From positions 31,655 to 95,654 of IMG/VR virus record IMGVR_UViG_3300014204_000139: a DNA stretch of 64,000 nucleotides. One strand, written 5' to 3'. Source of the DNA: a virus. Its lineage: Duplodnaviria; Caudoviricetes. Shown piece after piece: positions 328 through 27,870 of this stretch. Numbering within the stretch: the first letter of the stretch is position 1; every line of letters starts with the position of its first letter. The position numbers were made by a program, and so were the translations under genes. The notes below the pieces were generated by a model. That model did not search any database and was not told the DNA's origin. It saw only the letters and a program-made list of their open reading frames with translations.

Positions 328-404
328 TGGTACCCCTAGCAAGACTCGAACTTGCGACCCACTGATTAGAAGTCAGTTGCTCTATCCATCTGAGCTATAG
401 GGGC
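328..404 (-). tRNA. tRNA-Arg(TCT), CCA encoded
   Basis: Cloverleaf GCCCCTA...TAGGGGT-A-CCA; anticodon arm ACTGA-CT TCT AA-TCAGT; T-loop TTCGAGT. Confidence 0.95.
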
Positions 405-412
405 ATCTTTTT

Positions 413-484
413 GGTGAGTGAATGGATTTGAACCATCAATCCTGGAGCCACAATCCAGTGTCTTACCATTTGACGACACCCACC
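413..484 (-). tRNA. tRNA-His(GTG) with G-1:C73; CCA apparently not encoded
   Basis: G-GTGGGTG...CACTCAC-C; anticodon arm CTGGA-TT GTG GC-TCCAG. Confidence 0.9.
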
Positions 485-496
485 ATTAATTTTATG

Positions 497-569
497 AGCG
501 GTATACGAGACTCGAACTCGTAACAACTTGATTGGAAATCAAGAGCTCTACCAATTGAACTAATACCGC
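497..569 (-). tRNA. tRNA-Gly(TCC), no encoded CCA
   Basis: GCGGTAT...ATACCGC-T; anticodon arm CTTGA-TT TCC AA-TCAAG. Confidence 0.93.
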
Positions 570-571
570 TT

Positions 572-647
572 TGGTACTCCCAAACGGATTTGAACCGATG
601 TTTTCAGATTGAAGGTCTGACTACCTAACCAATTAGTAGATGGGAGC
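572..647 (-). tRNA. tRNA-Glu(TTC) with C33
   Basis: GCTCCCA...TGGGAGT-A-CCA; anticodon arm TCAGA-CC TTC AA-TCTGA. Confidence 0.9.
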
Positions 648-659
648 ATTTATAAAAGA

Positions 660-855
660 GAGATAATAATAGGTGGGATTTGAAACCCACAGCTGTAACC
701 AAAATATGAGCTAGCATCACTTTCGGCACCTTAATATTAGTATGTATTAACCTATACAGCTTTTTTAACTTTCAACATTTTTTATCTCATCCGGGTTCGG
801 ACCCTGAAAATTATGTTTACTTGTTAGCATTTCCTTCTGCGACTATTATTATCTC
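660..855 (-). ncRNA. candidate tRNA-like ncRNA (~196 nt) with 13-bp terminal stem, T-arm and long internal insert
   Basis: Perfect inverted repeat 660-672/843-855; T-arm-like GTGGG-TTTCAAAT-CCCAC abutting the 3' stem strand; lies in the tRNA cluster; no ORF in the track. Confidence 0.6.
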
Positions 856-865
856 AAATTCTTTT

Positions 866-1012
866 TTATTTTTCATATATTATAATAACTTTTTTACCTT
901 TTCTTTTTAGTTTTTTCAAAGGTAGATCGCCACATTTAGTTCCAGCAAATAAAGCTGCGGCTCCTTGATATTCTGATACTTCAAATTCTTGTATGATTTT
1001 ATTCTTTTTCAT
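866..1012 (-). CDS. small basic hypothetical protein (48 aa, MKKNKIIQEFEV...)
   Basis: Manual translation; abuts upstream gene stop. Confidence 0.5.
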   Translation of the reverse strand: MKKNKIIQEFEVSEYQGAAALFAGTKCGDLPLKKLKRKGKKVIIIYEK

Positions 1013-1013
1013 A

Positions 1014-1430
1014 TTAATTAATGATTATAAACTTAGAAAATGAACCAGATGGAATATGAAAATCAAAACGACATCTATATTCTACAGGATATGAAATAAC
1101 ATCATCTATTATAGATTCAGGAGGATTTTTTACTGTTGTCTCATATGTAATAATTAATTTTGACTGATCTATTGTTTTTACATCTTCATAAAATCTGCAC
1201 TTTTGTATTGGAACTTTACCAAATTTTAAATAATTATTATGTTTTATAACAAAATTTGCAAATTTTCCTTCATATGAAGATGCAGAACTTAAGAATGAAC
1301 CTGTAGTTACATTAGAGTTTTTAGTTTCTAATTGAATTAAGGTTAATTCAGCTAAATTTTGATTATAACATCCGCTTAAAATAAATAAAATAATTATAAT
1401 AAGAAAGATCTTTAATTTCATCTTATTCAC
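1014..1430 (-). CDS. putative lipoprotein
   Basis: Hydrophobic N-terminus ending in lipobox-like LSGC. Confidence 0.6.
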   Translation of the reverse strand: MNKMKLKIFLIIIILFILSGCYNQNLAELTLIQLETKNSNVTTGSFLSSASSYEGKFANFVIKHNNYLKFGKVPIQKCRFYEDVKTIDQSKLIITYETTVKNPPESIIDDVISYPVEYRCRFDFHIPSGSFSKFIIIN

Positions 1431-2013
1431 TTTCTTTATACCAATGATTTTCTTGTACGTATTTTATAATTTTTTCTAAAGAATCAAAAACTTTTAGTTC
1501 ATGTGTTACATGATATCTATCCAGCATTAGTTTATAAATTTTTTCTTCTTCATTAAATAACATATAATAAGAACCATTTTCAGATAAAGTATATTCGAAA
1601 ATATCTATAAACTTAAAACCTGGATAAGTTTCATGAAGGGGTTTTATAAATTCTAAAATTTCTTTAAGAGCTAAAATTGTTTTATTAAAAGATTCAATTG
1701 AGTTCTTAGTTAACATAACCTTAATGCATCTTTGACCAGTTTCAGGAAAATACCCACCATAATATAATCCTTTTTGTTGAACTATTTCTGAGTATTTATT
1801 ATAAACTGTATAACCACTATTTTCATCTAATAATAAATTCCAATCAGTTGGATTTTTATCAATTTTAAGTTTTCCTATTTCATTTTTTATTTTTTCAATT
1901 TTCTTATAATTAGAACTAAGTTCAGATTGAATAGGTTCTAAAAGTTTAAATAATTCTTTTCTTCTTTCTACTAATTTTTTCATTTCTTTTTGTAAATTTA
2001 ATTCAAGACTCAT
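1423..2013 (-). CDS. hypothetical protein, N-terminal coiled coil
   Basis: 196-aa ORF in operon. Confidence 0.7.
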   Translation of the reverse strand: MSLELNLQKEMKKLVERRKELFKLLEPIQSELSSNYKKIEKIKNEIGKLKIDKNPTDWNLLLDENSGYTVYNKYSEIVQQKGLYYGGYFPETGQRCIKVMLTKNSIESFNKTILALKEILEFIKPLHETYPGFKFIDIFEYTLSENGSYYMLFNEEEKIYKLMLDRYHVTHELKVFDSLEKIIKYVQENHWYKESE

Positions 2014-2150
2014 TAATCACCTATAATCTTTAAAAGAAGTTTCTTTCTCTTTTTTTAATAACCATTTTGTTAGAAATCTTTTCCAATATCCTTTTGGTTT
2101 TTTAAAAATCCCATCCTTTGTGAAATCCCACCAGCCACCTTTTGGATTCT

Positions 2151-2663
2151 TCATTTTCTAATAAAATTAAAATTGTCAGGTTTATTTTTCATAATTTCAA
2201 ATATTTTCTCTTCTGAGATAGGATAAAAATTATTATTATCTACTCCTATATCATGACATTTTCCTTGAACCATATCATTTAGACCTGAATGAGAATGTCC
2301 AAATAATAAAATACTGTTATAATGAGATCTTGGCCATACTAACATAGCATAATGACAAACAACAATATGTTGACTATTTATTGTTTTACACCACATTTCA
2401 TGATAACTTCTATCCATCCACTTATCATGAGATCCTCTTATAAAAAAATGCTGTCCATTTAATCTTTTTATAATTTCTTCTAAATACTTTCTATCTCTTA
2501 GTGAAGCATCTCCACCATGAATTACAATATCATTTGGCTTAACTATTTCATTATTTCTTTTAATTAATTCTTCATTCATTTCTTCAACTGAGTTAAAAGG
2601 TCTATTACAATATCGAATAATATTATAATGACCATAGTGTTCATCACTAGTAAAAAAATACAT
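2151..2663 (-). CDS. calcineurin-like metallophosphoesterase
   Basis: Motifs TSDEH, GGD, GSHD, CHY, GHSH, DIGVD. Confidence 0.9.
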   Translation of the reverse strand: MYFFTSDEHYGHYNIIRYCNRPFNSVEEMNEELIKRNNEIVKPNDIVIHGGDASLRDRKYLEEIIKRLNGQHFFIRGSHDKWMDRSYHEMWCKTINSQHIVVCHYAMLVWPRSHYNSILLFGHSHSGLNDMVQGKCHDIGVDNNNFYPISEEKIFEIMKNKPDNFNFIRK

Positions 2664-3122
2664 CTAATCGTCCTCTGTATTAGCTTTATAGCTTTTTATA
2701 AACTCAGTTGCTATTTCTATTTGTATTTGTTCCATGAATAAATCAGATATCTCTTTTATTTTTAATAGTTGTTCTTCAGTAAAATATTCAATACTTTTTT
2801 TATAATAGGTATAAATTCTTCCTTTATCTATATAATAATAATCAATATCATTACTTTTATAGTATAGAGGACCCATTAATAAAGAATTTAATACAAAATG
2901 AATTTGTCTGCATAATATTGTATTATTTTCTTGTACAAATATACATTCGCGAAATATTTCTTTAAATCTTTTTTTTAAACTAATTTTATGAAGCTTTTCG
3001 ATTATTTTATCTCTATTTTTTCGTATTCTTTCCGTACCAAAATTTGTTCCATTAATATTATAAGCATATAAATTATAAAACATACAAACTAATACATCAT
3101 AGAATGTGAATGGTAGTTTCAT
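2664..3122 (-). CDS. hypothetical protein
   Basis: 152-aa ORF, coupled to neighbours. Confidence 0.6.
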   Translation of the reverse strand: MKLPFTFYDVLVCMFYNLYAYNINGTNFGTERIRKNRDKIIEKLHKISLKKRFKEIFRECIFVQENNTILCRQIHFVLNSLLMGPLYYKSNDIDYYYIDKGRIYTYYKKSIEYFTEEQLLKIKEISDLFMEQIQIEIATEFIKSYKANTEDD

Positions 3123-3334
3123 ATATCACTAGTCTTTCTTGTTCTTTTATAGTTTTGACTTATTATATTCATTTCATGTGATGTTTTTCTTTGATCACTG
3201 ACTTCAATTATTTTCCAACTTCCTTCAAGTTCATCAATTTTAATTAATTTGTTTAAATTTGCAAATTTTTCTGGAATGTATGCAGTTGTTTTTTTATTTT
3301 CTTTTTCTAAGATACATTGTTTTAAATAATACAT
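3119..3334 (-). CDS. hypothetical protein
   Basis: 71-aa ORF with GAGG RBS. Confidence 0.65.
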   Translation of the reverse strand: MYYLKQCILEKENKKTTAYIPEKFANLNKLIKIDELEGSWKIIEVSDQRKTSHEMNIISQNYKRTRKTSDI

Positions 3335-3356
3335 TTTAATGTTTCCTCTTTATGAT

Positions 3357-3439
3357 TGGTAGGGAAGAAGGGATTCGAACCCTTAAACCGAAGTATCCGC
3401 TCTTGAGGCGGACGTGTATGCCAGCTCCACCACTTCCCC
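3357..3439 (-). tRNA. tRNA-Leu(CAA)
   Basis: GGGGAAG...CTTCCCT-A-CCA; anticodon arm TCCGC-CT CAA GA-GCGGA; long variable arm. Confidence 0.93.
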
Positions 3440-3448
3440 ACATTTACT

Positions 3449-3525
3449 TGGTCTCTATGGGAAGATTCGAACTTCCGACTCTCTGGTCCCAGGCCAGATA
3501 CGCTACCAGGCTGCGCTACATAGAG
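3449..3525 (-). tRNA. tRNA-Pro(TGG) with C33
   Basis: CTCTATG...CATAGAG-A-CCA; anticodon arm TCTGG-CC TGG GA-CCAGA. Confidence 0.92.
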
Positions 3526-3530
3526 AAAAA

Positions 3531-3606
3531 TGGTGACCCCAATGGGATTTGAACCCATCACCTACTGGTTAAAAGCCAGTTGCTCTACCAAATGAGCTAT
3601 GAGGTC
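3531..3606 (-). tRNA. tRNA-Lys(TTT)
   Basis: GACCTCA...TGGGGTC-A-CCA; anticodon arm ACTGG-CT TTT AA-CCAGT. Confidence 0.95.
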
Positions 3607-3612
3607 ACTGTT

Positions 3613-3993
3613 TTATTTTAAAATTAGAAAAGAATCTGGTAATTTTACATTTTCTGGGATATCATAGTTAAAAAACAATGGCGCGATATCTAATGGTTTA
3701 TAACCTGCAAGACCACATCCGATGGGAGTAACTAAGAATGTTAAATTTGGATTTCTTTTAGCAAATCTTATAAATTTTCCAATTTGACTCTCAATTATTT
3801 TTAATGGTAAAATTTTAAGATTTCTATCTTTTGTTGCTATTCCATAACACTTTCCCATTAAACCTGTTCCTACACCATTTCTTGCTCCAAATTTTTTTAG
3901 TGCTATTAAAGCTGCACCTTTACCATGTTTACCCGCGTAATTTGATCCAAATACAAATATTTCATTATCTTTTAATTTTGTTATTTTATTCAT
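3613..3993 (-). CDS. A1S_2505-like phage protein (possible macro-domain-like fold)
   Basis: IFVFGSN..GKHGKGAA and VTPIGCGLAG signatures. Confidence 0.7.
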   Translation of the reverse strand: MNKITKLKDNEIFVFGSNYAGKHGKGAALIALKKFGARNGVGTGLMGKCYGIATKDRNLKILPLKIIESQIGKFIRFAKRNPNLTFLVTPIGCGLAGYKPLDIAPLFFNYDIPENVKLPDSFLILK

Positions 3994-4005
3994 TTTAAAC
4001 TCCAG

Positions 4006-4079
4006 TGGCTGGCGGAATAGGACTCGAACCTATATTAATGGCTTCAAGGGCCACTTACCTACCTTTAGTAGATCCGTCA
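4006..4079 (-). tRNA. tRNA-Gln(TTG) with C33
   Basis: U1-A72 acceptor TGACGGA...TCCGCCA-G-CCA; anticodon arm GTGGC-CC TTG AA-GCCAT. Confidence 0.9.
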
Positions 4080-4087
4080 GTAATAAA

Positions 4088-4272
4088 AAATTGGTTCTTC
4101 TCTATCAATGATAAATTTATTTACAAATTTCCTACAAGGTCCATAATAGACTCTTAAAATGTTTTTAACAAATAATATTCAGTTTTCAAAGAGCATATCA
4201 TTTAGATAGAGTTTCCAATAAAATTTTACCACATGCCCATGAGTAAAATTAAATTAGATTAAGAACCAATTT
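4088..4272 (-). ncRNA. candidate structured RNA/leader containing an rrn-type boxA
   Basis: Terminal stem 4088-4099/4261-4272; inner helix 4100-4113/4196-4211; hairpin 4222-4250; TGCTCTTTGAAAACTGAATA at 4176-4195 on minus strand. Confidence 0.5.
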
Positions 4273-4280
4273 ATTAAATT

Positions 4281-4937
4281 CTACATATTCCTGAATGATG
4301 TTACTAAATCAAATCCTCCCTTTACTATTTTATCTTTATTGGAAATATTTACTATTTTATCTTCATCTGAGTTAATGACATTACCAATAAAAGATACAAT
4401 ATCAACGTAAAGTTGTTCAGCCGGAATTAATAGTGGTATACCTTTTATTTTTGAAAGGTTTGGACATCTTTCAAAAATCTCTACATAACTAACATGATTA
4501 TAGATACCAGTCCGACTTATCATAAAAATTGGCGATTTAATTTTCTTATGAATCTTTATTAAATCTTTTTCTTCTACATTTAGAAAAGATTTCAAAATCA
4601 TATCTTTGGATCTTTGGTTTCTTTTCTTAAATGTTAAAAAATCCATACTTGAATACATTAACTGATTCCAAATTCTTTGATCATTTAAATCTTCTTCAGA
4701 TAATATTTTAGATTTCTTCTCTTCTTCCATTACTAAAAATAATTTTGAACAAATTACCAACCAATAAAAATAAATACAACGCTCATGTTCATAAATGTGG
4801 CTTGGATAAGAACTACAATTAATGTTATAAAATGTTGTAGTTTCAAAATTTGTTCTGTTAAAAACTATCTTTTTATCAATTCCATATTTACCAATCAAAA
4901 AATCATAGTAATCTTTAAAATTTGAAATCACTAACAT
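4281..4937 (-). CDS. hypothetical phage protein (FKDYYD...GFDLVTSFR type)
   Basis: 218-aa ORF with AAGGA RBS. Confidence 0.75.
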   Translation of the reverse strand: MLVISNFKDYYDFLIGKYGIDKKIVFNRTNFETTTFYNINCSSYPSHIYEHERCIYFYWLVICSKLFLVMEEEKKSKILSEEDLNDQRIWNQLMYSSMDFLTFKKRNQRSKDMILKSFLNVEEKDLIKIHKKIKSPIFMISRTGIYNHVSYVEIFERCPNLSKIKGIPLLIPAEQLYVDIVSFIGNVINSDEDKIVNISNKDKIVKGGFDLVTSFRNM

Positions 4938-4956
4938 TTTGATTCCTTTCTTTATT

Positions 4957-5027
4957 TGGTAGTCGTGGGAGGATTTGAACCTTCGACCTGTCGCTTATAA
5001 GGCATCTACCTACTGAGCTACACGACT
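4957..5027 (-). pseudogene. degenerate tRNA-Ile(TAT)
   Basis: Intact acceptor (AGTCGTG/CACGACT-A-CCA), T-arm and loop CT TAT AA, but about 5 nt missing between the D stem and the 5' anticodon stem. Confidence 0.7.
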
Positions 5028-5050
5028 ACAATGATTTATTTTACTCACAA

Positions 5051-5065
5051 ATTAATATATGTAGT
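5051..5065 (-). promoter_or_regulatory. putative early-class promoter ACTACATATATTAAT
   Basis: Same motif at 7387-7400, 9598-9612, 27186-27200, each heading a minus-strand block. Confidence 0.6.
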
Positions 5066-5090
5066 AATAACTTATTTAACTAAAAAATTC

Positions 5091-5100
5091 TGAACAAAAT
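5091..5100 (+). promoter_or_regulatory. putative late-class promoter (GAACAAAAT)
   Basis: Member of the AGAACAAA family; precedes the 28-aa ORF. Confidence 0.5.
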
Positions 5101-5117
5101 AAAGGAGGATACTATAT

Positions 5118-5204
5118 ATGATTGTACTTGATATTTTAAGAAGTCTTATTGTATTTCTAATTATACTTCTTTGGTATAGATTCTATAAAAGAACAAAAAA
5201 ATAA
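5118..5204 (+). CDS. 28-aa single-TM peptide MIVLDILRSLIVFLIILLWYRFYKRTKK
   Basis: AGGAGG RBS, upstream late motif, downstream hairpin; hydrophobic core plus basic tail. Confidence 0.6.
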   Translation: MIVLDILRSLIVFLIILLWYRFYKRTKK

Positions 5205-5223
5205 TTTCTGGTTTTAATTAGAG

Positions 5224-5263
5224 ATGAGAGAGTGATAATCGACCAGAATTATCACTCTCTCAT
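5224..5263. terminator. 16-bp perfect hairpin between convergent units
   Basis: ATGAGAGAGTGATAAT / ATTATCACTCTCTCAT. Confidence 0.65.
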
Positions 5264-5309
5264 TCAGAAAGGAGAAAATGGAACCAGAGAATATTGTAAA
5301 ACTCCAAAT

Positions 5310-5535
5310 AGCAGCTGGGAGTTGTTAAGATGCTGAGAGATGCACAACTCGAATCCAGATTTTTCCAATGTCTTTAACCATAACTCTTAAGTCTTGTGTT
5401 ACCCATTATTTTATCAGTCGGGTTAACTGTCAGTCTTGAACCATTAGTCCTTAGTCTTGGTTTTCTTTTCGCGCCATATTGTGATTAAATAATAATCTAA
5501 TAATCGCACCCATTAACCCGAGGATACAGGGGCTC
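5310..5535 (-). ncRNA. candidate ncRNA with two blocks of 7-nt periodic repeats and flanking hairpins
   Basis: Heptamer blocks 5368-5395 and 5424-5458; hairpins 5319-5350 and 5401-5423; no long ORF. Confidence 0.5.
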
Positions 5536-5575
5536 TCAATTCCTTACTTTTACACTACCGAAGTCTTATTTTTAG

Positions 5576-5812
5576 GAGCGAGGAGTATTTTCTTTTAGCA
5601 AAGTATTTTAATAGGAACTCCTTCTGCTCGAATACTTTTTTGAAAAGCGAGTGGTATATTTCTGGAATGATTTATAGGAACCACTTATGCTTTTTGAATT
5701 TCAAAAGGCGGAAAGTATTTTCAATTTAATAGGAACTTTCTATGCCGATTTTATGTTAATATAGCGAGGAGTATGTCATCACCCAAGATTTTAATAGGAA
5801 CTCCTTCTGCTA
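5576..5812 (-). ncRNA. array of four covarying bulged hairpins (5576-5629, 5643-5694, 5707-5746, 5762-5812)
   Basis: Plus-strand consensus GC-G-NNNNGT-AT-[10-22 nt]-AT-AGGA-ACNNNN-TMT-GC with compensatory stem changes. Confidence 0.75.
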
Positions 5813-5843
5813 ATTCTTAAACTAATAGATTACTTTATTGTAT

Positions 5844-5853
5844 ATTTGTTCTA
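5844..5853 (-). promoter_or_regulatory. putative late-class promoter TAGAACAAAT pointing into the hairpin array
   Basis: Exact motif match, about 30 nt upstream of the first hairpin. Confidence 0.55.
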
Positions 5854-5922
5854 TAAAATTTTGAAATAAACTAAAAATTAACTAGAAAAAATAGAAATAT
5901 TATTGCATAAGTACTAAAAAAA

Positions 5923-6447
5923 TTATTCTACTATATCAGTGGTTGCATTTAACATTTCCAGATGAGCATCAATGTAATCAAATTTCATCTGCAGGTCTTT
6001 TAGAGAATTATTTTTAAAATCTTCATCGTATAACTGAATTGATTGAGCTCTTGATCCATCTGAATTCAGTTGAATTGATTTTAATTTGTTTTCTGCAACT
6101 ACCTTATTTAGAGCTACAAATAATGTACAGTATTCTTTATAATTCATTTTAAACATTAGAGCTTCTGCGATTGAAATTTCATGTTCTTGAGTCACAACAC
6201 CTTTTGGAATTCTTAATTTTGTATTGATGTTTGTCTTATCAATCATTACTTTTAATTTTGCTCTTCTTTCTAATAGATCTATTCCTGATTGAATTAGTCG
6301 AAGAATATGTTCCCTTTGAGTTTTTTCTGAATCAAATGCTGGTTTTTCAGTTGATGTTAATGATGAATACTTTTGAATTTCTTGAGTCACTCCTGCTACT
6401 TTCTTTTGATTTAACTTCTTTTCTTTTAAAGCTTCAATCATCTTCAT
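5923..6447 (-). CDS. DIP1984/septicolysin-like coiled-coil protein
   Basis: MKMIEALK start, IDKTN..T, SIAEAL, C-terminal ID..LE..NA.T pattern. Confidence 0.55.
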   Translation of the reverse strand: MKMIEALKEKKLNQKKVAGVTQEIQKYSSLTSTEKPAFDSEKTQREHILRLIQSGIDLLERRAKLKVMIDKTNINTKLRIPKGVVTQEHEISIAEALMFKMNYKEYCTLFVALNKVVAENKLKSIQLNSDGSRAQSIQLYDEDFKNNSLKDLQMKFDYIDAHLEMLNATTDIVE

Positions 6448-6495
6448 AAGTCTTAAATCTCTCCTTATTATATTATAGGATTATAAATAATCCTT

Positions 6496-6678
6496 TCAAA
6501 TCCAAAACTTTTTATTTTTCTCATCCTCATTCTTTTTCCAGTTCCATGACCATATTGGTATTTCACCATGTTTTGGACAAATTGCTCTACTAAATCTATA
6601 ATGATGTGGACCATGATAAAATCCACCAATTCCAAATATTTTAATTTTTTCTTCACAATCTTTTTGTGTGCAATTCAT
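6496..6678 (-). CDS. small Cys/His-containing hypothetical protein
   Basis: 60-aa ORF with CxxxxC and CPKH. Confidence 0.45.
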   Translation of the reverse strand: MNCTQKDCEEKIKIFGIGGFYHGPHHYRFSRAICPKHGEIPIWSWNWKKNEDEKNKKFWI

Positions 6679-7443: not shown

Positions 7444-7453
7444 TAGAACAAAT
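7444..7453 (+). promoter_or_regulatory. putative late-class promoter TAGAACAAAT
   Basis: Recurring motif upstream of the 7543 gene. Confidence 0.6.
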
Positions 7454-7542
7454 ATATGATGGATAAAACCATCAAAAAATCCAACCGACTTTAAAAATAA
7501 AAATGAGTTTAGTCGGTACTCAGTAAAAAGGAGGTAGTAAAA

Positions 7543-9654: not shown

Positions 9655-9664
9655 TAGAACAAAT
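9655..9664 (+). promoter_or_regulatory. putative late-class promoter TAGAACAAAT
   Basis: Upstream of the tail/sheath operon. Confidence 0.65.
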
Positions 9665-9682
9665 AATAAATCTAAACTTCAT

Positions 9683-17493: not shown

Positions 17494-18567
17494 TTAATCC
17501 AATTGACATTTTGTCTCCTTAGATAAAAGAAATCTTTTTGTAATTTTTTGACAAAGTTTATCAATTGCAACTTTATTTGCTGTATGTGGAAGAACAGACT
17601 TCTCATATAGTTCATTAAATTTTAAATCAAATGATTCTAGAAGATTTGAAATTTCTTCATATTTATAAGTGCCATTTTTAATTTCAAGTAAGAATTTTGC
17701 ATCTGGTCTTGGAAATGTTATTTTTCCTGTTGTTAATAATTCTTCGCCTTCAGTAATTAATCTTACTAAATGTGAACCATGTTTTGTATCAAATCCATAT
17801 TTTTCTTCTAGTTTTGCTCTTTCTGGATTTCTATTCTTTTTCCAATTTTCATACTGATTAAAATATCTTTCTGCCATTGCATAAGAATTTTCTTTTTGAA
17901 GAATTTCTATAAATTGATCAGAAATAGGTAAAATTGCTTGAGTTGCTTCTTTGTCTAAATTTGGAAATTGTTTGCAAAGAGCTTTAAAATCATAAGTCTC
18001 TTGCATTTGTTCTAGTTGTTCTTTTAGAGGATGAAACTCTTTAACATTCTCTAACTTCATTGCAACTAATACATTTAAAGCACCAATTTGATCTTTTGTT
18101 AAATCAGATTTAGATTCAGATAAACCATAATCAGATCTTTTTGGTTTTTTAGTTGGAGGATTTAGTAACCAAGATCTATGTAGTTTAATTCTATTAAATT
18201 GAGAATGAGCATAACCTGAAAATGTAAATTTAGACTTTTTAGAAACAAATAAGTCTCTATTTTTTGAAATTTGTAACCAGTCTACTGAGTTCTGTAGCCA
18301 TTTATCTTTTGGAACAAATAAAAGTTCAATAATATTTGGGTTATTTTCCATTGCTAACTGCATAAATTTTCTAATTTCAAAATATGTTATATCATTTTTC
18401 TTATCTTCAAATTGCTCTACTCTATTTAAGAACCCATAAAAATATGTTTCATCTGCAATAAAAACACCTCGTTCATCAATATCTGATTGTGGTGTATTTG
18501 TGCCATATAGATGTGATCCAGCTAAACATCTAAAAATTAATTTAAAGGAGTTTGGAAGTTGAATCAA
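17494..18567 (-). CDS. Pol-beta superfamily nucleotidyltransferase (RlaP/NrdC.11-like)
   Basis: GSHLYGTNTPQSDIDERG (GS + DxD), NNPNIIELL, GFDTKHGSHLVRL. Confidence 0.88.
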   Translation of the reverse strand: MIQLPNSFKLIFRCLAGSHLYGTNTPQSDIDERGVFIADETYFYGFLNRVEQFEDKKNDITYFEIRKFMQLAMENNPNIIELLFVPKDKWLQNSVDWLQISKNRDLFVSKKSKFTFSGYAHSQFNRIKLHRSWLLNPPTKKPKRSDYGLSESKSDLTKDQIGALNVLVAMKLENVKEFHPLKEQLEQMQETYDFKALCKQFPNLDKEATQAILPISDQFIEILQKENSYAMAERYFNQYENWKKNRNPERAKLEEKYGFDTKHGSHLVRLITEGEELLTTGKITFPRPDAKFLLEIKNGTYKYEEISNLLESFDLKFNELYEKSVLPHTANKVAIDKLCQKITKRFLLSKETKCQLD

Positions 18568-18641: not shown

Positions 18642-20543
18642 TTAGCTAATCAGATTTATTATTGTATCTTTCTCTAAACTTTCAGGTGAAAGATCAATAT
18701 CACAATCTTCTTTTGAGTCAACCAATATTGCTCCAGATTTCTCTAAAACCTCATTTAATGTTATACTACCAAAATTAAAGTCAAAAAGAAACTGTCTAAT
18801 TTTATTGGTTGATTTTGTTGCTCTTGATGTTATTGAATCCCCAAATGAGGTTTCAACATAATAGAATTTACACTCTTTCTCGTTAGTAACCATCAACCCA
18901 ATAATTTTCTGACGAGTTGAAATTTTAGCACTGTCGGACGAGATAACGTTATTTGGACTAATCATATAATTTCTGGAAAGATTTTCTCTTACATCTCTTC
19001 CAACAATTATTTTGAATGGAACCTCAACCTTTTCGTTAAAATTATAATAGTTGACAAACATAATTGAACATATGGAACTATTTTTATTTACATGAAATAA
19101 TTCTGTAGCACCATTTGGAGGAGTTGCAGAGGTCATATCTCCAGAAAATAAAACAGTTAAATTCTGATTCCTGTAACGTCCATCCCATCCTATTTTGTCT
19201 CCAAGATGATTAATCAAAGAGAGATCTAGATCAATTCTATTTTCTCCAACATCATTCCAATGAATACCAAAAATCATATTATTTGGAACACTAATACAGG
19301 TTCCAGATGGAAAATTTCCAACAAATTGTTTTTCTGTTGCAGGTAATGAATATGTAATATTTTTTGGAATATAAATATTCTTTCCTGCAACCTTTTGTCG
19401 GAGATTTTCACTTATAGATTTTAGAATAATGTTCAATGCATCTTGATGTTTTTTAGAACTTAATTCATTAAAATCTGTAACAAAATTTTTTCCATTTCTA
19501 ATTCTATACAATATATAACTTGGTTCAGATTCTCTAAACTTTACTGAATATACAAGTCTTATTTTTCTAAAGACATTTACTTTTTTTAATTCTTTTTCAA
19601 GAATTTCTAAATCTAGAGTATCATTTTTAATTTTAGATGTTACACTGTTTAGAAAATCTTCTGGCATCGGTTTATGAAAACGTACTGCAAGTCTTCTGAT
19701 TCTATTAATTATGTTATTCATTTCTTCACTTCTTTTAAATGCTAGAAATAAAGGTTTAAATCTGTAGAAAATCTCGCCAAGATGTTCAATACCAAATTCT
19801 TTATCATATTTTTTAAATAATTTGTAAACAATATCTTTGGTGATTGTCATTGATACTTTTATTTCTGAAATTGTATTTGGATCTTTAATCAACAACGTTC
19901 TCCCAATAGATTTAAATATTACAAATCTTAGGAATTCAATAGGATTCTTTGGAATTTTATTTAGACTATCATATAGAACAACTCTAACTTCTTTATTTTT
20001 AATTTGAACCAACTCATCTTCAGAAAAATTAAAAAGTTGTTTAATAAGATTAACCATGCCAATTTTTGTATCATCTTTTAAAGCGATTCCAGACTTTAGA
20101 ACTGCAAAAACTTTTTCTTTTAATTCTTCTATAGTGTATCCCTTAATAACTGTCAAGGGAATTTTATCTAAATTGATTCTTGGAAGTTCTAATTTTTCAC
20201 ATGGAATATAAACTGAATTATTATCATATACACCAAGAGCCTCAAATCCATATGTAGTTATGTAATGCATTATTTGCTCAATTACTAAAACTTCAATATT
20301 TGTTTCTTTTATTTTTCTCCATGATTTATGAAAGGTGTTGTTTATCTTTCTTGAATTAAATCCAATTGTTTCTTCAATCATGGGAATTATTTTAATTAAA
20401 AAATCTGTATCATAGTTATAAATTACTTCTGGTGCATAAATAAATCCACTTTTAATTGTTTCTTTGAGAAGTTTTTTATTTGCTTCTTTTTTTCCATTTT
20501 TTGTAATTGGTAATGCTTTGAATAAACTAATAAATGTCTGCAT
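18642..20543 (-). CDS. large helical protein with C-terminal TerD-like domain (possible Ro/TROVE(Rot)-TerD-type RNA-binding protein)
   Basis: EQIMHYITTYG in the helical region; FGIHW..RIDLDLS..IGWDG..FSGDMTSA..GATE in the C-terminal region. Confidence 0.55.
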   Translation of the reverse strand: MQTFISLFKALPITKNGKKEANKKLLKETIKSGFIYAPEVIYNYDTDFLIKIIPMIEETIGFNSRKINNTFHKSWRKIKETNIEVLVIEQIMHYITTYGFEALGVYDNNSVYIPCEKLELPRINLDKIPLTVIKGYTIEELKEKVFAVLKSGIALKDDTKIGMVNLIKQLFNFSEDELVQIKNKEVRVVLYDSLNKIPKNPIEFLRFVIFKSIGRTLLIKDPNTISEIKVSMTITKDIVYKLFKKYDKEFGIEHLGEIFYRFKPLFLAFKRSEEMNNIINRIRRLAVRFHKPMPEDFLNSVTSKIKNDTLDLEILEKELKKVNVFRKIRLVYSVKFRESEPSYILYRIRNGKNFVTDFNELSSKKHQDALNIILKSISENLRQKVAGKNIYIPKNITYSLPATEKQFVGNFPSGTCISVPNNMIFGIHWNDVGENRIDLDLSLINHLGDKIGWDGRYRNQNLTVLFSGDMTSATPPNGATELFHVNKNSSICSIMFVNYYNFNEKVEVPFKIIVGRDVRENLSRNYMISPNNVISSDSAKISTRQKIIGLMVTNEKECKFYYVETSFGDSITSRATKSTNKIRQFLFDFNFGSITLNEVLEKSGAILVDSKEDCDIDLSPESLEKDTIINLIS

Positions 20544-20560: not shown

Positions 20561-20601
20561 AAGCGAATGGTATTTTGATTTAATAAGGACCATATATGCT
20601 T
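20561..20601 (-). promoter_or_regulatory. fifth copy of the bulged-hairpin motif, in the leader of the 633-aa gene
   Basis: AAGC-G-AATGGT-AT-9nt-AT-AAGG-ACCATA-TAT-GCTT (plus strand); directly upstream of the AAAGGA RBS. Confidence 0.7.
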
Positions 20602-20622: not shown

Positions 20623-21180
20623 TTATCTTAGTTTTATAGGTGCAGCCTTTTTTTCTTCAAAAGCTTTTTCAGTTTCTGTTGATGTAATAATTGTCATTTT
20701 AGAAAGATCAATCTTTGGGAATCCCAACATACTTGCAATAATACTTCTTGGAAAAATTCCCAACATTGTCTCATAGACTCTCTTTTTATCAATCAACATT
20801 TTTTGATTCATCTCAAAATCATTTCTTCCAGCTTCAATTACTTGTTGAATTTTAACATAGAGACTTGAATCAAAGTTTGGATTATGTTCCTTGATAAACT
20901 GAAACATTGCTTTTGATCCTTCTGCGCCATATCTAGCAGAAATAGCACTATTGTACACCTTTTTCATATCTTCAGTATACATATCAGGTACCTGGGCAAC
21001 TTCCTTAACCTTTTTAAAGAAGTTATCATAGTTATTTCTATTCTGGTCATATTGTGCTTTAATGATCTGTTCTTGTTTTACCATGTCATTATTTATACCA
21101 ATGATTGCTGAACAAGAACCAATTGCAAGGACCAAAATAATCACTGCAAATACCATAAAGATTTTCATTCCAGTCTTCAT
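20623..21180 (-). CDS. LemA-like membrane-anchored protein
   Basis: N-terminal TM helix, coiled coil, IEAGRNDF..YE....FP..IIA..LGF. Confidence 0.7.
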   Translation of the reverse strand: MKTGMKIFMVFAVIILVLAIGSCSAIIGINNDMVKQEQIIKAQYDQNRNNYDNFFKKVKEVAQVPDMYTEDMKKVYNSAISARYGAEGSKAMFQFIKEHNPNFDSSLYVKIQQVIEAGRNDFEMNQKMLIDKKRVYETMLGIFPRSIIASMLGFPKIDLSKMTIITSTETEKAFEEKKAAPIKLR

Positions 21181-22308: not shown

Positions 22309-22956
22309 TCAAAATTTTAGTTTTCCTCTTTCTTCTGGCGGAAAATCTAAGTATTTTAATTTAGTAATAATTCTTTCACCAGATCTTGTATATAACTCTT
22401 CTTCTGGTTTTGCAACAATTCCCTCTGCTGGAAGATTTGCAAGATTTGATATAAATCCATTTTTTACAATTTCAAGCATTTCTTTTAAAGTTCCGCTTCC
22501 AATATTTGGAACAATATTAAAATTAAATTTTTTTGCAATCATTTGTTTAGAAATATTATTTAGCCACCATCCATCAATATTAATATCAATTAGAATTATT
22601 GAAACTCCATTTGGAAGATATCTTGATCCATCATTTTCTTGGATCCCTTTTCCATAACCTTCAAAATACATCTCAACTTCTTTATCTTTAAACATTTCTT
22701 CAAATAAATCAATTTTTGAAAAAACTTTTTCACCACAATAATTTATCAATGGAACTGGAATTTGACTTCCTGGATTTCCAAAAGATATACAATTATTATT
22801 CCATTTAATACAAATATTAGTACCATTTATTTTTTCAGTAAAATTCCAAATATTATTTTGTAAATATCTAAATTCAGGTATAGAATAATCACCAACAATT
22901 AATCTTTTTGAGTTATCTCTTTTAAACAATGATTGTATTTTATGATATTCCTTCAT
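22309..22956 (-). CDS. ATP-dependent RNA ligase-family nucleotidyltransferase (short Rnl2-like)
   Basis: Motif I TEKINGTN, FEGYG, AEGIVAKP, ITKLK. Confidence 0.8.
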   Translation of the reverse strand: MKEYHKIQSLFKRDNSKRLIVGDYSIPEFRYLQNNIWNFTEKINGTNICIKWNNNCISFGNPGSQIPVPLINYCGEKVFSKIDLFEEMFKDKEVEMYFEGYGKGIQENDGSRYLPNGVSIILIDINIDGWWLNNISKQMIAKKFNFNIVPNIGSGTLKEMLEIVKNGFISNLANLPAEGIVAKPEEELYTRSGERIITKLKYLDFPPEERGKLKF

Positions 22957-22959
22957 TAT

Positions 22960-23451
22960 TTACCCCATAAAAGCTTCATTAAATCTTGATCTTGAATTTT
23001 TAAAATTATGTACAATTAATTTACAAATATTTTCTATTTCTGCTTTTTCCATTCCGTCTTTTATAAGTTCATCTTCTAGAGTAGATAAAGCTAGATACAT
23101 TATATCACCTGATATAAATTCTCTTCCTAAACAATGTAAAAATTTTTGAAATAATGGATCTAAATTTTTATTTTCTTCTTTTATTACTGTTCTATTTTTT
23201 ATGTCTTGTCTCCAAGAATTTAAACCACAACAACAACCAGCACCTACATATAATTCTTCTCTATATGAAGTCCCCATCTTTCCTGGTATTTGCATTAATT
23301 TACAAAAATATCTATTTTCTTCTTCTGACCAATTTAATGCTTTACAAATATCAGATGATCCAAAAAGTCTTAAACCAGCTGCACATTTAGTTTTAATACA
23401 ACAAAATCCACAACCAACACATGGTTTAGTTATAATTTTAAAATCATCCAT
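22960..23451 (-). CDS. CxxCxxCC (YkgJ-like) Cys-cluster protein
   Basis: PCVGCGFCC...C...C...GAGCC. Confidence 0.65.
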   Translation of the reverse strand: MDDFKIITKPCVGCGFCCIKTKCAAGLRLFGSSDICKALNWSEEENRYFCKLMQIPGKMGTSYREELYVGAGCCCGLNSWRQDIKNRTVIKEENKNLDPLFQKFLHCLGREFISGDIMYLALSTLEDELIKDGMEKAEIENICKLIVHNFKNSRSRFNEAFMG

Positions 23452-23723
23452 TATGAATACCTCTTAAAGGTAAATACTTCTTTTGCAATTTTAATTTGAT
23501 CTTTATATGGAAGATCTCTAAATTCTAATAATTCTTCTTTTTTAAAACCACCATGAGTTTCCATGTAATCTGCATCTAAAACAACTTCTATAACTTCTCT
23601 TTGCGGAATTGACTCACCAACTCCTTCACATTGAAAGATATCACTTGAAATTGCATCCCATGTATTTCGCATACATCTATGAACCTTTTCAATTGTTTCT
23701 TTTGGTAGTAATTCTTTTTTCAT
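23451..23723 (-). CDS. hypothetical protein
   Basis: 90-aa ORF in operon. Confidence 0.65.
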   Translation of the reverse strand: MKKELLPKETIEKVHRCMRNTWDAISSDIFQCEGVGESIPQREVIEVVLDADYMETHGGFKKEELLEFRDLPYKDQIKIAKEVFTFKRYS

Positions 23724-23741
23724 TCTTTCCTTTCCTTTCCT

Positions 23742-24095
23742 TTAATCTACTACAAATACTTCTGGATAACAAATTGTTCCTTGTGGAACTACAGCTATTC
23801 TATAAATATCTCTATTTCCTTCATAAAAATATTTTATAGAAGTTTCAAAACTGATATTTTTAGATGATATAGCTATACATTCTGGTATATTTCCTCTTTT
23901 TAATGGAATTACTCTTAAAATTTTATCGCCAGGTACCACAAAATTTTTAGCATCTTTTTTTCTTTTAAAACAAAAGATTCCCAAAGTATTATCTTTTGCT
24001 TTTACAGTCGATCCTGTTTCATATTTTAAATAATACTCACTACCTTTAACTATTATACTTTCTCTATTTTTATTAACAACTTTATATCTTATCAT
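23742..24095 (-). CDS. hypothetical protein, paralog of the upstream gene
   Basis: YKVV..NRESIIV, LGIFCFK.K.DA, ILRV.PLKRG, GTICYPEV. Confidence 0.75.
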   Translation of the reverse strand: MIRYKVVNKNRESIIVKGSEYYLKYETGSTVKAKDNTLGIFCFKRKKDAKNFVVPGDKILRVIPLKRGNIPECIAISSKNISFETSIKYFYEGNRDIYRIAVVPQGTICYPEVFVVD

Positions 24096-24111
24096 ATTTT
24101 AAGTTTCCCCT

Positions 24112-24458
24112 TTAATCAATTACCAATACTTCTGGATAGCAAATTGTACCTTCTGGTCCACCATAAGAAATTTTTGTATTCATTTTTCTTCTATAAAAAT
24201 TTTCTAGGTTGTGGGTATCCAAGCCTATTTTTTTGGACTTTTTCCTCTTTTTAATGGAACAACCCTTAAAATTCTAGATGTTGTAAAGTTATTTGCAAAA
24301 TGTGTAGCATCTCTTTTTGTTTTGAAACAAAATACACCCAAACTATCATCTTTACCTTTTATAATAGATCCTTTTTCATATTTTAATATAAATTTAAGAT
24401 CCCTAACTATAATACTTTCTCTATTATGATCTACAACTTTATATTTATATTTAGTCAT
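24112..24458 (-). pseudogene. paralog of 23742..24095 interrupted by a -1 frameshift at an A7 run (24228-24234)
   Basis: Frame 0 ends ..SPKK*; the -1 frame continues IGLDTHNLENFY...PEGTICYPEVLVID*. Confidence 0.75.
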
Positions 24459-25792
24459 ATTTCAAGTTCCTTAACTAGATTAGTTAATTTTTCTTTATCA
24501 TTTAATTCAGGTTCATCTAAAACACATTCCAATAAATACTTCAAAACATCACCAACTTCTTTTCCTGGTTTTAATCCTGTTAATTCCATAATCTCATAAC
24601 CATCTATTTTTAAATCTCGAAATTGATTAACAGGGTCTTTTCTATTAGCCTGATCTCTAAAACATTTTGTTAAGTTATAGATATCTCTTAGTTTATAATA
24701 TTCTCTACTTTTTAAACCACCCATCTTATCACAAATTGCAACTCTAATTAGACTTTGGTATGGAATATTACAATCATTTAATGATTTGAGAGTTCTCCTT
24801 ACACCCTTTGGACCAGTTCTTTCACTGGAGACTCTCATATGCAATAATATTAAATTAGAGATTAAATTAATCTCTTCATAACTAAACCTTAAATTTCCTA
24901 ATTCAAATTTTGCTTCTTCACATCCTGTTTCCTCATGACCCTCAAACCAAATATCTTTTGTTTTTGGGTTAGTTCTTGCAGAGATTGGTTTTCCTATATC
25001 ATGAAGATAGGCAGCTAATTTGATTAATGGATCTTTTGTATGACAATGATCGCCTGCCATCATACAGTGATCAAATACATCTTCTATATGATATGGACCA
25101 CCTGGGTGCAAATATGCTAAATTTAAACTTGGAAAAACATATTTTAATGCATTAATATCATAAAGAGATCTAAAGAATATGGAAGCCTTTTTTACTGACA
25201 TAGCTTTTAATACTTCAAGTCTTATTCTTTCTGGACTAATATAAGACTTAATATAATCAGAATATTTTTTCAAAGATTCAAATGTATCATCTGAAAAGTA
25301 TCCATCAATTTTTGCTAAAAATCTACAAGCTCTTATGATTCTATTTGGATCTTCCCAGATTCTCTTTTCTGGTTCTCCATTAAATCTTATGATTCTCTTT
25401 TGAAGATCTTCTTGACCATTTACATAATCAATAATCTTTTTTGAAGTTGGATCATATAGTAAAGAATTAATTGTAAAATCCCTTCTTTTTACATCCTCTT
25501 CAGCTGATTTAGAAACTTTAATTTGTACATTTTTATCATTTAGTCCATTATAAGAATCTGTTCTGAATGTTGCAACTTCAATACCATCAATAAAAGTAAC
25601 CAGAAAACTTTTACCAAATGTTTTTATTTCTTGATCTTTAAAAATTTCAATTAATTTATCTGGTTCAGCTGAAGTTACTACATCTTTATCTTTACATTTA
25701 ATCCCTAGAATCATATCTCTAACATAACCACCAACAAGATATGATTCATAACCTAAATCTTGAAGTTTTAAAATAATTTCTTCTGCAGTCAT
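24455..25792 (-). CDS. cca: CCA-adding tRNA nucleotidyltransferase / poly(A) polymerase family with HD domain
   Basis: VGGYVRD..DKD, EVATFR, RRDFTIN, EDPNRIIRA.RF, LHDIGK, GHE. Confidence 0.88.
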   Translation of the reverse strand: MTAEEIILKLQDLGYESYLVGGYVRDMILGIKCKDKDVVTSAEPDKLIEIFKDQEIKTFGKSFLVTFIDGIEVATFRTDSYNGLNDKNVQIKVSKSAEEDVKRRDFTINSLLYDPTSKKIIDYVNGQEDLQKRIIRFNGEPEKRIWEDPNRIIRACRFLAKIDGYFSDDTFESLKKYSDYIKSYISPERIRLEVLKAMSVKKASIFFRSLYDINALKYVFPSLNLAYLHPGGPYHIEDVFDHCMMAGDHCHTKDPLIKLAAYLHDIGKPISARTNPKTKDIWFEGHEETGCEEAKFELGNLRFSYEEINLISNLILLHMRVSSERTGPKGVRRTLKSLNDCNIPYQSLIRVAICDKMGGLKSREYYKLRDIYNLTKCFRDQANRKDPVNQFRDLKIDGYEIMELTGLKPGKEVGDVLKYLLECVLDEPELNDKEKLTNLVKELEI

Positions 25793-27829: not shown

Positions 27830-27839
27830 CAGAACAAAT
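27830..27839 (+). promoter_or_regulatory. putative late-class promoter CAGAACAAAT
   Basis: Recurring motif. Confidence 0.55.
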
Positions 27840-27870
27840 ATATAATAAGAAAAAATTTTAAAGAGATAAA

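What the first reader, a model, noticed from the sequence alone, without database searches (positions are those of the whole stretch)
5576..5853. Array of four covarying bulged-hairpin RNAs with its own promoter motif, and a fifth copy 15 kb away in a gene leader
Seen (plus strand): GAGC-G-AGGAGT-AT-22nt-AT-AGGA-ACTCCT-TCT-GCTC; AAGC-G-AGTGGT-AT-16nt-AT-AGGA-ACCACT-TAT-GCTT; GGC-G-GAAAGT-AT-10nt-AT-AGGA-ACTTTC-TAT-GCC; TAGC-G-AGGAGT-AT-19nt-AT-AGGA-ACTCCT-TCT-GCTA. Stem sequences change but pairing is kept, bulge sequences are conserved and apical loops vary. A TAGAACAAAT motif at 5844-5853 points into the array on the minus strand. The RNA would read GC-A[GU]A-6bp stem-UCCU-AU-loop-AU-stem-C-GC. 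A fifth copy is at 20561-20601. Inference: small protein-binding ncRNAs, possibly processed to monomers. The single C with a 3-nt opposite element loosely recalls the Ro-binding helix of Y RNAs. The variable loops could be tethers or guides.
Basis: partly seen in the sequence, partly recalled or inferred. Interest (0 to 1): 0.85.

Follow-up and report, generated by a model that had tools for sequence, protein, structure and literature searches.

The report
Detached array of Y-like handle RNAs
Four small folded RNAs that share one conserved "handle" lie beside this large phage's tRNA genes, 15 kb from an uncharacterised protein gene that the same handle accompanies in nearly every related phage and bacterial locus, so they are probably the RNA half of an undescribed RNA-protein particle built like Ro60 with its Y RNAs.

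Summary
Four hairpins (5576-5812) and a weaker fifth (20561-20601) share one motif on the minus strand: NNGC, A-N-A opposite C, a purine-rich 6-bp stem, a UCCU bulge, a variable top.

A covariance model finds only these five copies in the 95.6-kb contig. It finds more than 300 copies in 152 related loci. All are on the sense strand and within 2 kb of a homologue of the 633-aa protein (18642-20543). Stems covary strongly: 141 of 149 sites chosen by sequence anchors alone are fully paired, against 24 expected.

The protein has a helical N-domain and a TerD-like fold. It shows no sequence kinship to Ro60/TROVE. Long relatives of the hairpin carry a permuted tRNA mimic (T arm, closed acceptor stem, D arm) and match Rfam YrlA below threshold.

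Here the array is detached from the protein gene. It has its own recurring promoter-like motif and sits upstream of the tRNA cluster, amid RNA-repair genes. This argues for action in trans.

Best reading: Y-RNA-like handle RNAs for a non-Ro60 protein, tied to tRNA maintenance. Transcription, processing and binding are not shown.

The motif is not in Rfam, and I found no paper on it. This scan has already reported the same RNA-protein pair in at least eight other genomes.

The parts
5762..5812 (-). Handle hairpin 1 in transcription order. Outer stem UAGC/GCUA, AGA opposite C, inner stem AGGAGU/ACUCCU, UCCU bulge. The top is AUC-UUGGGU-GAU, which resembles a tRNA D loop.
   Evidence: Covariance model R1 scores it 56.2 bits, E 1e-14. 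Sequence. Top analysed.
5706..5747 (-). Handle hairpin 2. Outer stem GGC/GCC, AUA opposite C, inner stem GAAAGU/ACUUUC. It has the shortest top of the array.
   Evidence: R1 scores it 53.3 bits, E 8e-14.
5645..5692 (-). Handle hairpin 3. Outer stem AAGC/GCUU, AUA opposite C, inner stem AGUGGU/ACCACU.
   Evidence: R1 scores it 56.9 bits, E 6e-15.
5576..5629 (-). Handle hairpin 4. Outer stem GAGC/GCUC, AGA opposite C, inner stem AGGAGU/ACUCCU. The top contains ACUUUGC, a sequence that recurs in relatives.
   Evidence: R1 scores it 58.0 bits, E 3e-15. ACUUUGC was also seen by eye in the tops of L034 and L070 in the listing.
5843..5852 (-). AGAACAAATA, a promoter-like motif 31 nt upstream of the first hairpin.
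   Evidence: Four exact copies in the window against 0.66 expected. The others are at 7445, 9656 and 27831 on the + strand, each 18-89 nt before a + strand ORF. Its function as a promoter is inferred.
20561..20601 (-). Degenerate fifth copy in the leader of the partner gene.
   Evidence: R1 scores it 41.7 bits. The UCCU is altered and one stem pair is mismatched. It lies in the 79-nt gap between ORFs 20623-21180 and 18642-20543.
18642..20543 (-). Presumed partner protein of 633 aa: a helical N-domain (residues 1-385) followed by a TerD-like beta sandwich (about 418-586).
   Evidence: More than 3329 homologues, none with a Pfam family. The C-domain matches TerD structures 2qz7 (Z 10.8) and 2kxt (Z 10.2). 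Hairpins lie beside its homologues in 137 of 152 loci by the tight scan. By the model at E<=0.001 they lie beside 77 of 80 viral loci; with the looser limit of 0.01 used for the rest, all 80 viral and 61 of 72 genome loci.
17494..18567 (-). RlaP, an RNA-repair nucleotidyltransferase, directly downstream of the partner gene.
   Evidence: PF10127, E 6e-24. Its biochemistry is described in bioRxiv 10.64898/2025.12.29.696909.
328..5027 (-). tRNA cluster downstream of the array on the same strand. The nearest gene is tRNA-Ile(UAU) at 4957-5027.
   Evidence: No terminator-like site between the array and the cluster.
22309..25792 (-). RNA-repair genes upstream of the partner gene: an RNA ligase (22309-22956) and a CCA-adding enzyme with an HD domain (24455-25792).
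   Evidence: PF09414 at 2.6e-10; PF01743 at 1.6e-31 together with HD.

Best explanation
The four units are genes for small non-coding RNAs of about 40-55 nt, transcribed on the minus strand.

Inferred: transcription starts at the AGAACAAATA motif. It may run on into the downstream tRNA cluster, and the transcript is cut into monomers.

Each RNA is a 'handle' plus a variable top. The handle has a GC-closed outer stem, an A-N-A/C internal loop, a purine-rich 6-bp stem and a UCCU bulge closed by an A-U pair.

Inferred from co-occurrence: the handle is the docking site of the 633-aa helical + TerD-fold protein encoded 15 kb away (18642-20543). The pair forms a ribonucleoprotein organised like Ro60 with Y RNAs: a constant protein-binding stem and an exchangeable module.

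In relatives the module is often a tRNA arm or a whole permuted tRNA mimic. The pair lies among tRNA and RNA-repair genes. The particle therefore most likely acts in tRNA or RNA maintenance, by tethering or decoying factors that recognise tRNA. That last step is the least certain.
For: 1. RNA-level selection. At sites chosen by sequence anchors alone, 141 of 149 have all four free inner-stem positions paired, against 23.7 after shuffling partners. There are 40 different arm sequences. The outer positions pair in 144 of 149 sites, against 63.5. On 137 distinct model hits, 98.4% of cells are paired against 79.9% shuffled. Nine of 11 pairs show changes on both sides, in 333 cells. Controls with the 3' partner slid by 1-3 columns give 33-58% paired.

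2. Strand. All 217 + 97 model hits are on the sense strand of the protein gene. The tight scan gives 311 hits on the sense strand and 3 on the other. There are about 25 G-U cells against 6 non-pairs.

3. Partner. Every one of the 311 hits lies within 2 kb of the protein gene: 290 upstream and 21 downstream. No other neighbouring gene is conserved.

4. Hairpin-first search. Starting from the hairpin, 16 of 26 confirmed loci have the gene adjacent. All four larger records that lack an adjacent gene encode a homologue elsewhere; two of these are complete genomes of 416 and 424 kb.

5. Action in trans. The array is 15 kb from the gene and has its own motif.

6. Y-like modularity. Long variants contain a T arm, a closed acceptor stem and a D arm inside the same handle, and match Rfam YrlA at 36-46 bits. 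T-loop-like stem-loops occur in 33 tops, against 0.5 in shuffles.

7. tRNA and repair context. RlaP, an RNA ligase, a CCA-adding enzyme and the tRNA cluster lie here. tRNAs lie within 1 kb in 29 of 137 loci, and 101 of 102 of them are on the same strand. In the cultured cyanophages S-CRM01 and S-CBWM1 the gene and the hairpins sit inside tRNA arrays.
Against: The protein has no recognised RNA-binding domain. Its TerD-like domain is known for binding calcium, not RNA.

The window's own four tops are short and none is a clear tRNA mimic.

Only about a fifth of the loci have tRNA or repair genes close by, so the functional theme may not be general.

The promoter reading rests on four copies of a 10-mer.
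Confidence: 0.7

Rival explanations
1. The hairpins are cis-acting operators in the mRNA leader. The protein binds them in its own 5' UTR to control its translation or stability, and they have no function as free RNAs.
For: In most loci the hairpins lie directly upstream of the gene on the same strand. The last hairpin ends a median of 103 nt before the start codon, and 13 nt at the 5th percentile. The fifth copy here ends 17 nt before the ATG.
Against: The four best copies here are 15 kb from the gene and in front of tRNAs. Twenty-one copies lie downstream of the gene. Complete jumbo phages carry copies unlinked from the gene. Arrays of 2-6 units with distinct, recurring tops, including tRNA mimics, are not needed for an operator. 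Autoregulation could still coexist with action in trans.
Confidence: 0.12
2. They are true Y RNAs that serve a canonical Ro60 (TROVE) protein encoded in the unsampled part of the phage genome or in the host. Their linkage to the TerD-fold protein is indirect.
For: The long relatives match YrlA. The contig is estimated to be 28% complete. A TROVE gene lies 2.5 kb from the homologue in one Bythopirellula genome. The 5' strand GUUCCUA shares 5 of 7 letters with the vertebrate Ro60 site GGUCCGA, as quoted from PMC4201824.
Against: A TROVE gene occurs in 1 of 152 loci and not in this contig. Of five cellular genomes with the pair, two show no TROVE match. The bacterial Ro60-binding motif GNCGAAN0-1G is absent. 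The YrlA matches come from the tRNA-like module, not from the handle.
Confidence: 0.05
3. They are processing or stability punctuation for tRNA-cluster transcripts, such as RNase entry sites or protective hairpins, with no dedicated protein partner.
For: The array lies upstream of the tRNA cluster with no terminator between them. In S-CBWM1 one copy sits between two tRNA genes.
Against: About 80% of loci with hairpins have no tRNA gene within 1 kb, yet every hit lies beside the protein gene. Unpaired nucleotides that never vary (UCCU, A-N-A/C) point to specific recognition.
Confidence: 0.06
4. They are single-stranded DNA hairpins used in replication, recombination or transposition of a mobile gene cassette.
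For: The protein-plus-hairpin module occurs in very different phages and bacteria with no other conserved neighbour. Compensatory changes would also be expected for structures in single-stranded DNA.
Against: The hairpins lie on one side of the gene only and always on its sense strand. Their cargoes follow RNA-specific tRNA consensus (T loop UUCRANY, D loop) and match YrlA. No transposase or recombinase travels with the module.
Confidence: 0.03

Closest known systems
Ro60 (Rsr; TROVE + vWA) with bacterial and phage Y RNAs YrlA/YrlB (Rfam RF02553; Chen et al. 2014, PMC4201824). Examples are the Salmonella rsr-yrlBA-rtcBA operon and mycobacteriophages.
   Same: The small RNAs are encoded next to the protein gene on the same strand, often several per locus. 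The 5' and 3' ends form a conserved stem interrupted by bulges, and the distal module is exchangeable. At least one paralogue in many loci carries a T arm, a closed acceptor stem and a D arm, while the others are plain hairpins, like YrlB. The pair is linked to RtcB, other RNA-repair genes and tRNA genes.
   Different: The partner is not a TROVE protein: no Pfam match, profile-profile probability below 1%, and only noise-level fold scores. A TerD-like sandwich stands where Ro60 has vWA. The handle sequence differs (GGC-ANA-RRNRGU-UCCUA ... U-ACYNYY-C-GCC) and lacks GNCGAAN0-1G. No hit reaches the Rfam threshold. The four RNAs in this window have no tRNA-like module and are unlinked from the gene.
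Ro60 of Thermus phage phiLo (PDB 9l5y; PMC12135203).
   Same: It is a phage-encoded protein of the Ro60 kind. In the fold search it gave one of the longest alignments to the N-domain: Z 5.8 over 192 residues.
   Different: It is a bona fide TROVE ring. The Z score here is within the noise for helical repeats, with rmsd 9.2 A.
MXAN_6230/SCO0854 family of RING-domain proteins (NCBIfam NF041916; Prok-RING_4).
   Same: In the ESM Atlas the whole predicted fold aligns with this family (TM 0.74 over 596 residues). There is also a partial sequence match, E 1.5e-6.
   Different: Those proteins are about 850-1000 aa, actinobacterial and carry a RING domain. Their function is unknown. I did not examine them for handle RNAs.
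TerD family (PF02342; PDB 2kxt, 2qz7).
   Same: The C-terminal beta sandwich has the TerD fold (Z 10.2-10.8).
   Different: TerD proteins are stand-alone calcium-binding proteins of about 190 aa from tellurite-resistance operons, with no known RNA partner.

Membership tests
Y RNA / YrlA (Rfam RF02553, RF00019) | Scores at or above the Rfam gathering threshold | tested here: not met
   No Y RNA or YrlA match in window 4900-6000 even at E<=10, nor in the whole window at the gathering threshold. Long relatives reach 32-46 bits against the threshold of 69.
Y RNA / YrlA (Rfam RF02553, RF00019) | Ro60-binding motif in the 5' strand: GGUCCGA in vertebrates, GNCGAAN0-1G in bacteria (PMC4201824) | tested here: not met
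   The conserved 5' strand is G-U-UCCU-A. It shares 5 of 7 letters with GGUCCGA and does not fit GNCGAAN0-1G.
Y RNA / YrlA (Rfam RF02553, RF00019) | Encoded within about 2 kb of a TROVE (Ro60/Rsr) gene on the same strand | tested here: not met
   No TROVE match in the contig. A TROVE ORF occurs in 1 of 152 loci, and there it is on the opposite strand.
Y RNA / YrlA (Rfam RF02553, RF00019) | Terminal stem formed by the 5' and 3' ends, with conserved bulges and a variable distal module | tested here: met
Y RNA / YrlA (Rfam RF02553, RF00019) | tRNA-like module (T arm, closed acceptor stem, D arm) in at least one paralogue | tested here: not met
   None of the five copies in this contig has one. 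The feature is met in relatives such as L005, L015, L054, L124, L126 and L135.
Y RNA / YrlA (Rfam RF02553, RF00019) | Physically bound by Ro60 | not testable with these tools
   This needs immunoprecipitation or a gel-shift assay.
Ro60 / TROVE (PF05731), for the 633-aa protein | Sequence match to the TROVE domain | tested here: not met
   No Pfam match at E<=0.1. hhalign of A1 and A5 against 15 TROVE ORFs gives probability below 1%. A profile search of the PDB sequences finds nothing.
Ro60 / TROVE (PF05731), for the 633-aa protein | Ring of HEAT-like repeats | tested here: inconclusive
   Three Ro60 structures appear with the longest alignments: 1yvp_A (Z 5.4, 200 aa), 2nvo_A (Z 5.2, 195 aa) and 9l5y_B (Z 5.8, 192 aa). 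These Z scores are at noise level for helical repeats, and Foldseek finds nothing.
Ro60 / TROVE (PF05731), for the 633-aa protein | C-terminal vWA domain with a MIDAS site | tested here: inconclusive
   No Pfam vWA match at E<=0.1.
TerD (PF02342), for the C-terminal domain | TerD beta-sandwich fold | tested here: met
   2qz7_B: Z 10.8 over 144 aa. 2kxt: Z 10.2 over 145 aa. Foldseek probability 1.0. The Pfam TerD model itself does not match.
Kink-turn RNA motif | Three-nucleotide bulge followed by tandem sheared G-A pairs | tested here: not met
   The A-N-A loop is followed by covarying Watson-Crick R-Y pairs, with no G-A/A-G step.
CRISPR array or solitary repeat units | Near-identical direct repeats separated by variable spacers | tested here: not met
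   The arms differ between units and covary. Only the unpaired letters are constant.
Intrinsic terminators | GC-rich hairpin followed by a run of U | tested here: not met
   No terminator-like site in 4900-6600.

The most novel reading that the evidence does not exclude
The handle RNAs and the helical + TerD-fold protein form a second, independently evolved Ro/Y-type particle. It is widespread in large phages and present in some bacteria. It displays separate tRNA parts (D-arm-like, anticodon-arm-like and T-arm-like tops, or a whole permuted tRNA) on one protein-bound handle. These parts would recruit or decoy tRNA-recognising factors, for example host anticodon nucleases or the phage's own repair enzymes RlaP, RtcB, RNA ligase and CCA-adding enzyme. 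The particle would thus protect the phage's tRNA supply during infection.
Probability: 0.3. Interest if true: 0.9.

Novelty: new variant of a known kind. Interest (0 to 1): 0.8.

Why it matters
Ro60 with Y RNA has been the only known particle of this design: a protein-bound stem carrying an exchangeable, often tRNA-like, module. Even there the bacterial function is only partly understood.

A second family would show that the design is a general solution. This family has a different handle and a partner with no detectable kinship to Ro60. The partner has thousands of homologues, mostly viral. The family is tied to tRNA clusters and RNA-repair genes.

It would also give an uncharacterised protein family, and an RNA family missing from Rfam, a testable role in the contest between phage and host over tRNA.

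This window adds the clearest natural separation of the RNA array from the protein gene, which argues that the RNAs act in trans. Two cultured cyanophages, S-CRM01 and S-CBWM1, carry the pair, so experiments are feasible.

Tried and rejected
- Rfam at the gathering threshold and at E<=10 found nothing on the array.
- blastn of 4900-6000 against deposited phages matched only the tRNA-Ile gene.
- PHROGs and PADLOC gave nothing for the 633-aa protein. NCBIfam gave only a partial RING_SCO0854 match.
- A profile search of the PDB sequences gave no match.
- Foldseek on the N-domain alone gave nothing at E<=0.001.
- hhalign against TROVE gave probability below 1%.
- Free-energy z-scores of the array on either strand were not significant.
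- My first loose regex scan gave equal numbers of hits on both strands (773 and 778). I discarded it for a tighter one.
- In the collection-wide pattern search, 19 of 45 matches were chance hits that the covariance model did not confirm.
- MFE folding of the short AU-rich tops gave few structures, so I counted motifs against shuffles instead.
- Burroughs and Aravind 2016 could not be fetched.
- I considered and rejected the kink-turn, CRISPR-repeat, terminator and integron attC readings on sequence grounds.

Full report
**What is there**

The window is part of a 95.6-kb contig with 27% G+C. The contig belongs to a myovirus with multisubunit RNA polymerase genes and is estimated to be 28% complete, so the phage is probably a jumbo phage.

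Read on the minus strand, each is: NNGC, A-N-A, a 6-bp stem, UCCU, A, a variable top, U, the 3' arm of the stem, C, GCNN.

A fifth, weaker copy sits in the 79-nt gap before the 633-aa ORF 18642-20543. A covariance model (R1) scores the four at 53-58 bits and the fifth at 41.7 bits. It finds nothing else in the window or in the rest of the contig. Rfam has no match, even at E<=10.

**Is it more than chance, and on which strand?**

Folding energy alone is unremarkable. The comparative evidence is strong.

I fetched 80 viral and 72 genomic loci through homologues of the 633-aa protein. I then picked sites by conserved unpaired letters only, leaving the stem letters free.
- 141 of 149 sites had all four free inner positions paired, against 23.7 after shuffling partners. 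There were 40 different arm sequences.
- The two free outer positions paired in 144 of 149 sites, against 63.5.

On 137 distinct model hits:
- 98.4% of cells pair, against 79.9% in shuffles and 33-58% when the partner column is slid.
- 9 of 11 pairs change on both sides.

All 314 model hits are on the sense strand of the protein gene. A tight sequence-plus-pairing scan gives 311 sense hits and 3 antisense hits. About 25 cells are G-U and 6 are non-pairs. A double-stranded DNA site is therefore excluded. An RNA on the window's minus strand is the natural reading.

**The conserved handle**

These positions are invariant or nearly so: C4, A5, A7, G13, U14, U15-C16-C17-U18, a U and A-C on the 3' side, and C-G. 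The 5' arm is almost always purine, so pairs change mainly by transitions. Only the first of the two A-U pairs proposed above the bulge is conserved. The motif is not a kink-turn, because no tandem G-A pairs follow the loop.

**The partner**

Every one of the 311 hits lies within 2 kb of the protein gene: 290 upstream and 21 downstream. By the model, hairpins occur in 77 of 80 viral loci at E<=0.001, in all 80 when weaker hits are counted, and in 61 of 72 genomic loci. Several of the remaining loci lack upstream sequence. No other gene is a conserved neighbour.

I also searched from the hairpin side. Of 26 model-confirmed loci, 16 had the gene adjacent. The four larger records without an adjacent gene all encode a homologue elsewhere; two of these are complete phage genomes of 416 and 424 kb.

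The arrangement in this window recurs in those records: the array is detached by 15 kb, has its own motif, and lies next to the tRNAs. This argues that the RNAs work in trans.

The motif AGAACAAATA occurs four times exactly, against 0.66 expected. Each copy lies just upstream of a gene or of the array and points the right way. Its promoter function is inferred.

**The protein**

It has more than 3329 homologues at about 50% identity over the full length, none with a Pfam family. The models show a helical N-domain (residues 1-385) and a TerD-like sandwich that matches 2qz7 at Z 10.8 and 2kxt at Z 10.2.

The N-domain folded alone (pLDDT 83) has no Foldseek match. In the exhaustive structural search, three Ro60 structures give the longest alignments, 192-200 residues, but with Z of only 5.2-5.8. 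That is within the noise for helical repeats. Profile-profile comparison with 15 TROVE proteins gives probability below 1%. Kinship to Ro60 is therefore not shown.

The ESM Atlas shows the whole fold shared with the MXAN_6230/SCO0854 RING family.

**The link to Y RNA**

Some hits are 110-124 nt long. Inside the same handle they contain a T arm, an acceptor-like stem closed by a loop, and a D arm. This is the permuted tRNA mimic of YrlA. These hits match Rfam YrlA at 36-46 bits, below the threshold of 69, through that module and not through the handle.

Among 286 distinct tops, counted against shuffles:
- T-loop-like stem-loops occur in 33, against 0.5.
- Anticodon-loop-like seven-membered loops occur in 82, against 28. 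CUGUUAA and CUUGAAA recur.
- D-loop-like AYUGG motifs occur in 52, against 21.

Chen et al. 2014 (PMC4201824) describe the same layout for Ro60: several RNAs beside the gene on the same strand, one tRNA-like and the others plain hairpins. However, their binding motif (GNCGAAN0-1G, or GGUCCGA in vertebrates) is not the one seen here. TROVE genes are absent from this contig and from 151 of 152 loci.

**Context**

In this phage the partner gene is followed by RlaP and preceded by an RNA ligase and a CCA-adding/HD enzyme.

tRNA genes lie within 1 kb of the module in 29 of 137 loci, and 101 of 102 of them are on the same strand. In the cultured cyanophages S-CRM01 (g174) and S-CBWM1 (gp22) the gene and two or three hairpins sit inside the tRNA arrays.

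**Verdict**

Most likely (0.7), these are trans-acting handle RNAs for the 633-aa helical + TerD-fold protein. A role in tRNA maintenance is plausible but less certain. The system works like Ro60 with Y RNA but fails the membership tests for that family.

I found it neither in Rfam nor in the papers searched. Other agents of this scan have reported the same pair in at least eight other genomes and on the neighbouring stretch of this genome. My tests were run independently and agree with those reports.

Transcription, processing and binding are all still inferred.

Noticed in passing
window 5028-5575 (minus strand): A 550-nt non-coding stretch lies between the array and tRNA-Ile and carries repeated AAGACU-type heptamers. 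It has no Rfam match, and covariance model R1 finds nothing there. It may belong to the same transcript as the array.
   Followed up: partly
window 2151-2663, 17494-18567, 22309-22956 and 24455-25792 (all minus strand): These genes form an RNA-repair set around the partner gene: a calcineurin-like phosphoesterase, the RlaP nucleotidyltransferase, an RNA ligase (PF09414) and a CCA-adding enzyme with an HD domain. Homologues of the first, second and fourth each recur in 9 of the 80 related viral loci.
   Followed up: partly
window 7445-7454, 9656-9665 and 27831-27840 (+ strand); 5843-5852 (- strand): AGAACAAATA occurs exactly four times (0.66 expected), always 18-89 nt upstream of a gene or of the array. 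It is a candidate promoter element of the phage's own RNA polymerase.
   Followed up: partly
L225 (Synechococcus phage S-CRM01, NC_015569) 3599-3726: Two handle hairpins lie on the strand opposite the annotated 48-aa ORF g173c (locus 3641-3787) and overlap it. That ORF is probably a false gene call.
   Followed up: no
L110 (Bythopirellula MAG chromosome OZ245849), about 2.5 kb downstream of the homologue: A 553-aa TROVE (Ro60) ORF lies convergent to the TerD-fold homologue. It is the only such case in 152 loci. This could be chance, or a hint that the two systems interact.
   Followed up: partly
L165, L181 and L195 (jumbo phage records of 230-424 kb): Handle hairpins are scattered over several kb without the protein gene nearby, while a divergent homologue (31-38% identity) is encoded elsewhere in the same genome.
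   Followed up: partly
window 4957-5027 (minus strand): tRNA-Ile with anticodon UAU scores only 39 bits on the Rfam tRNA model, the weakest of the cluster.
   Followed up: no
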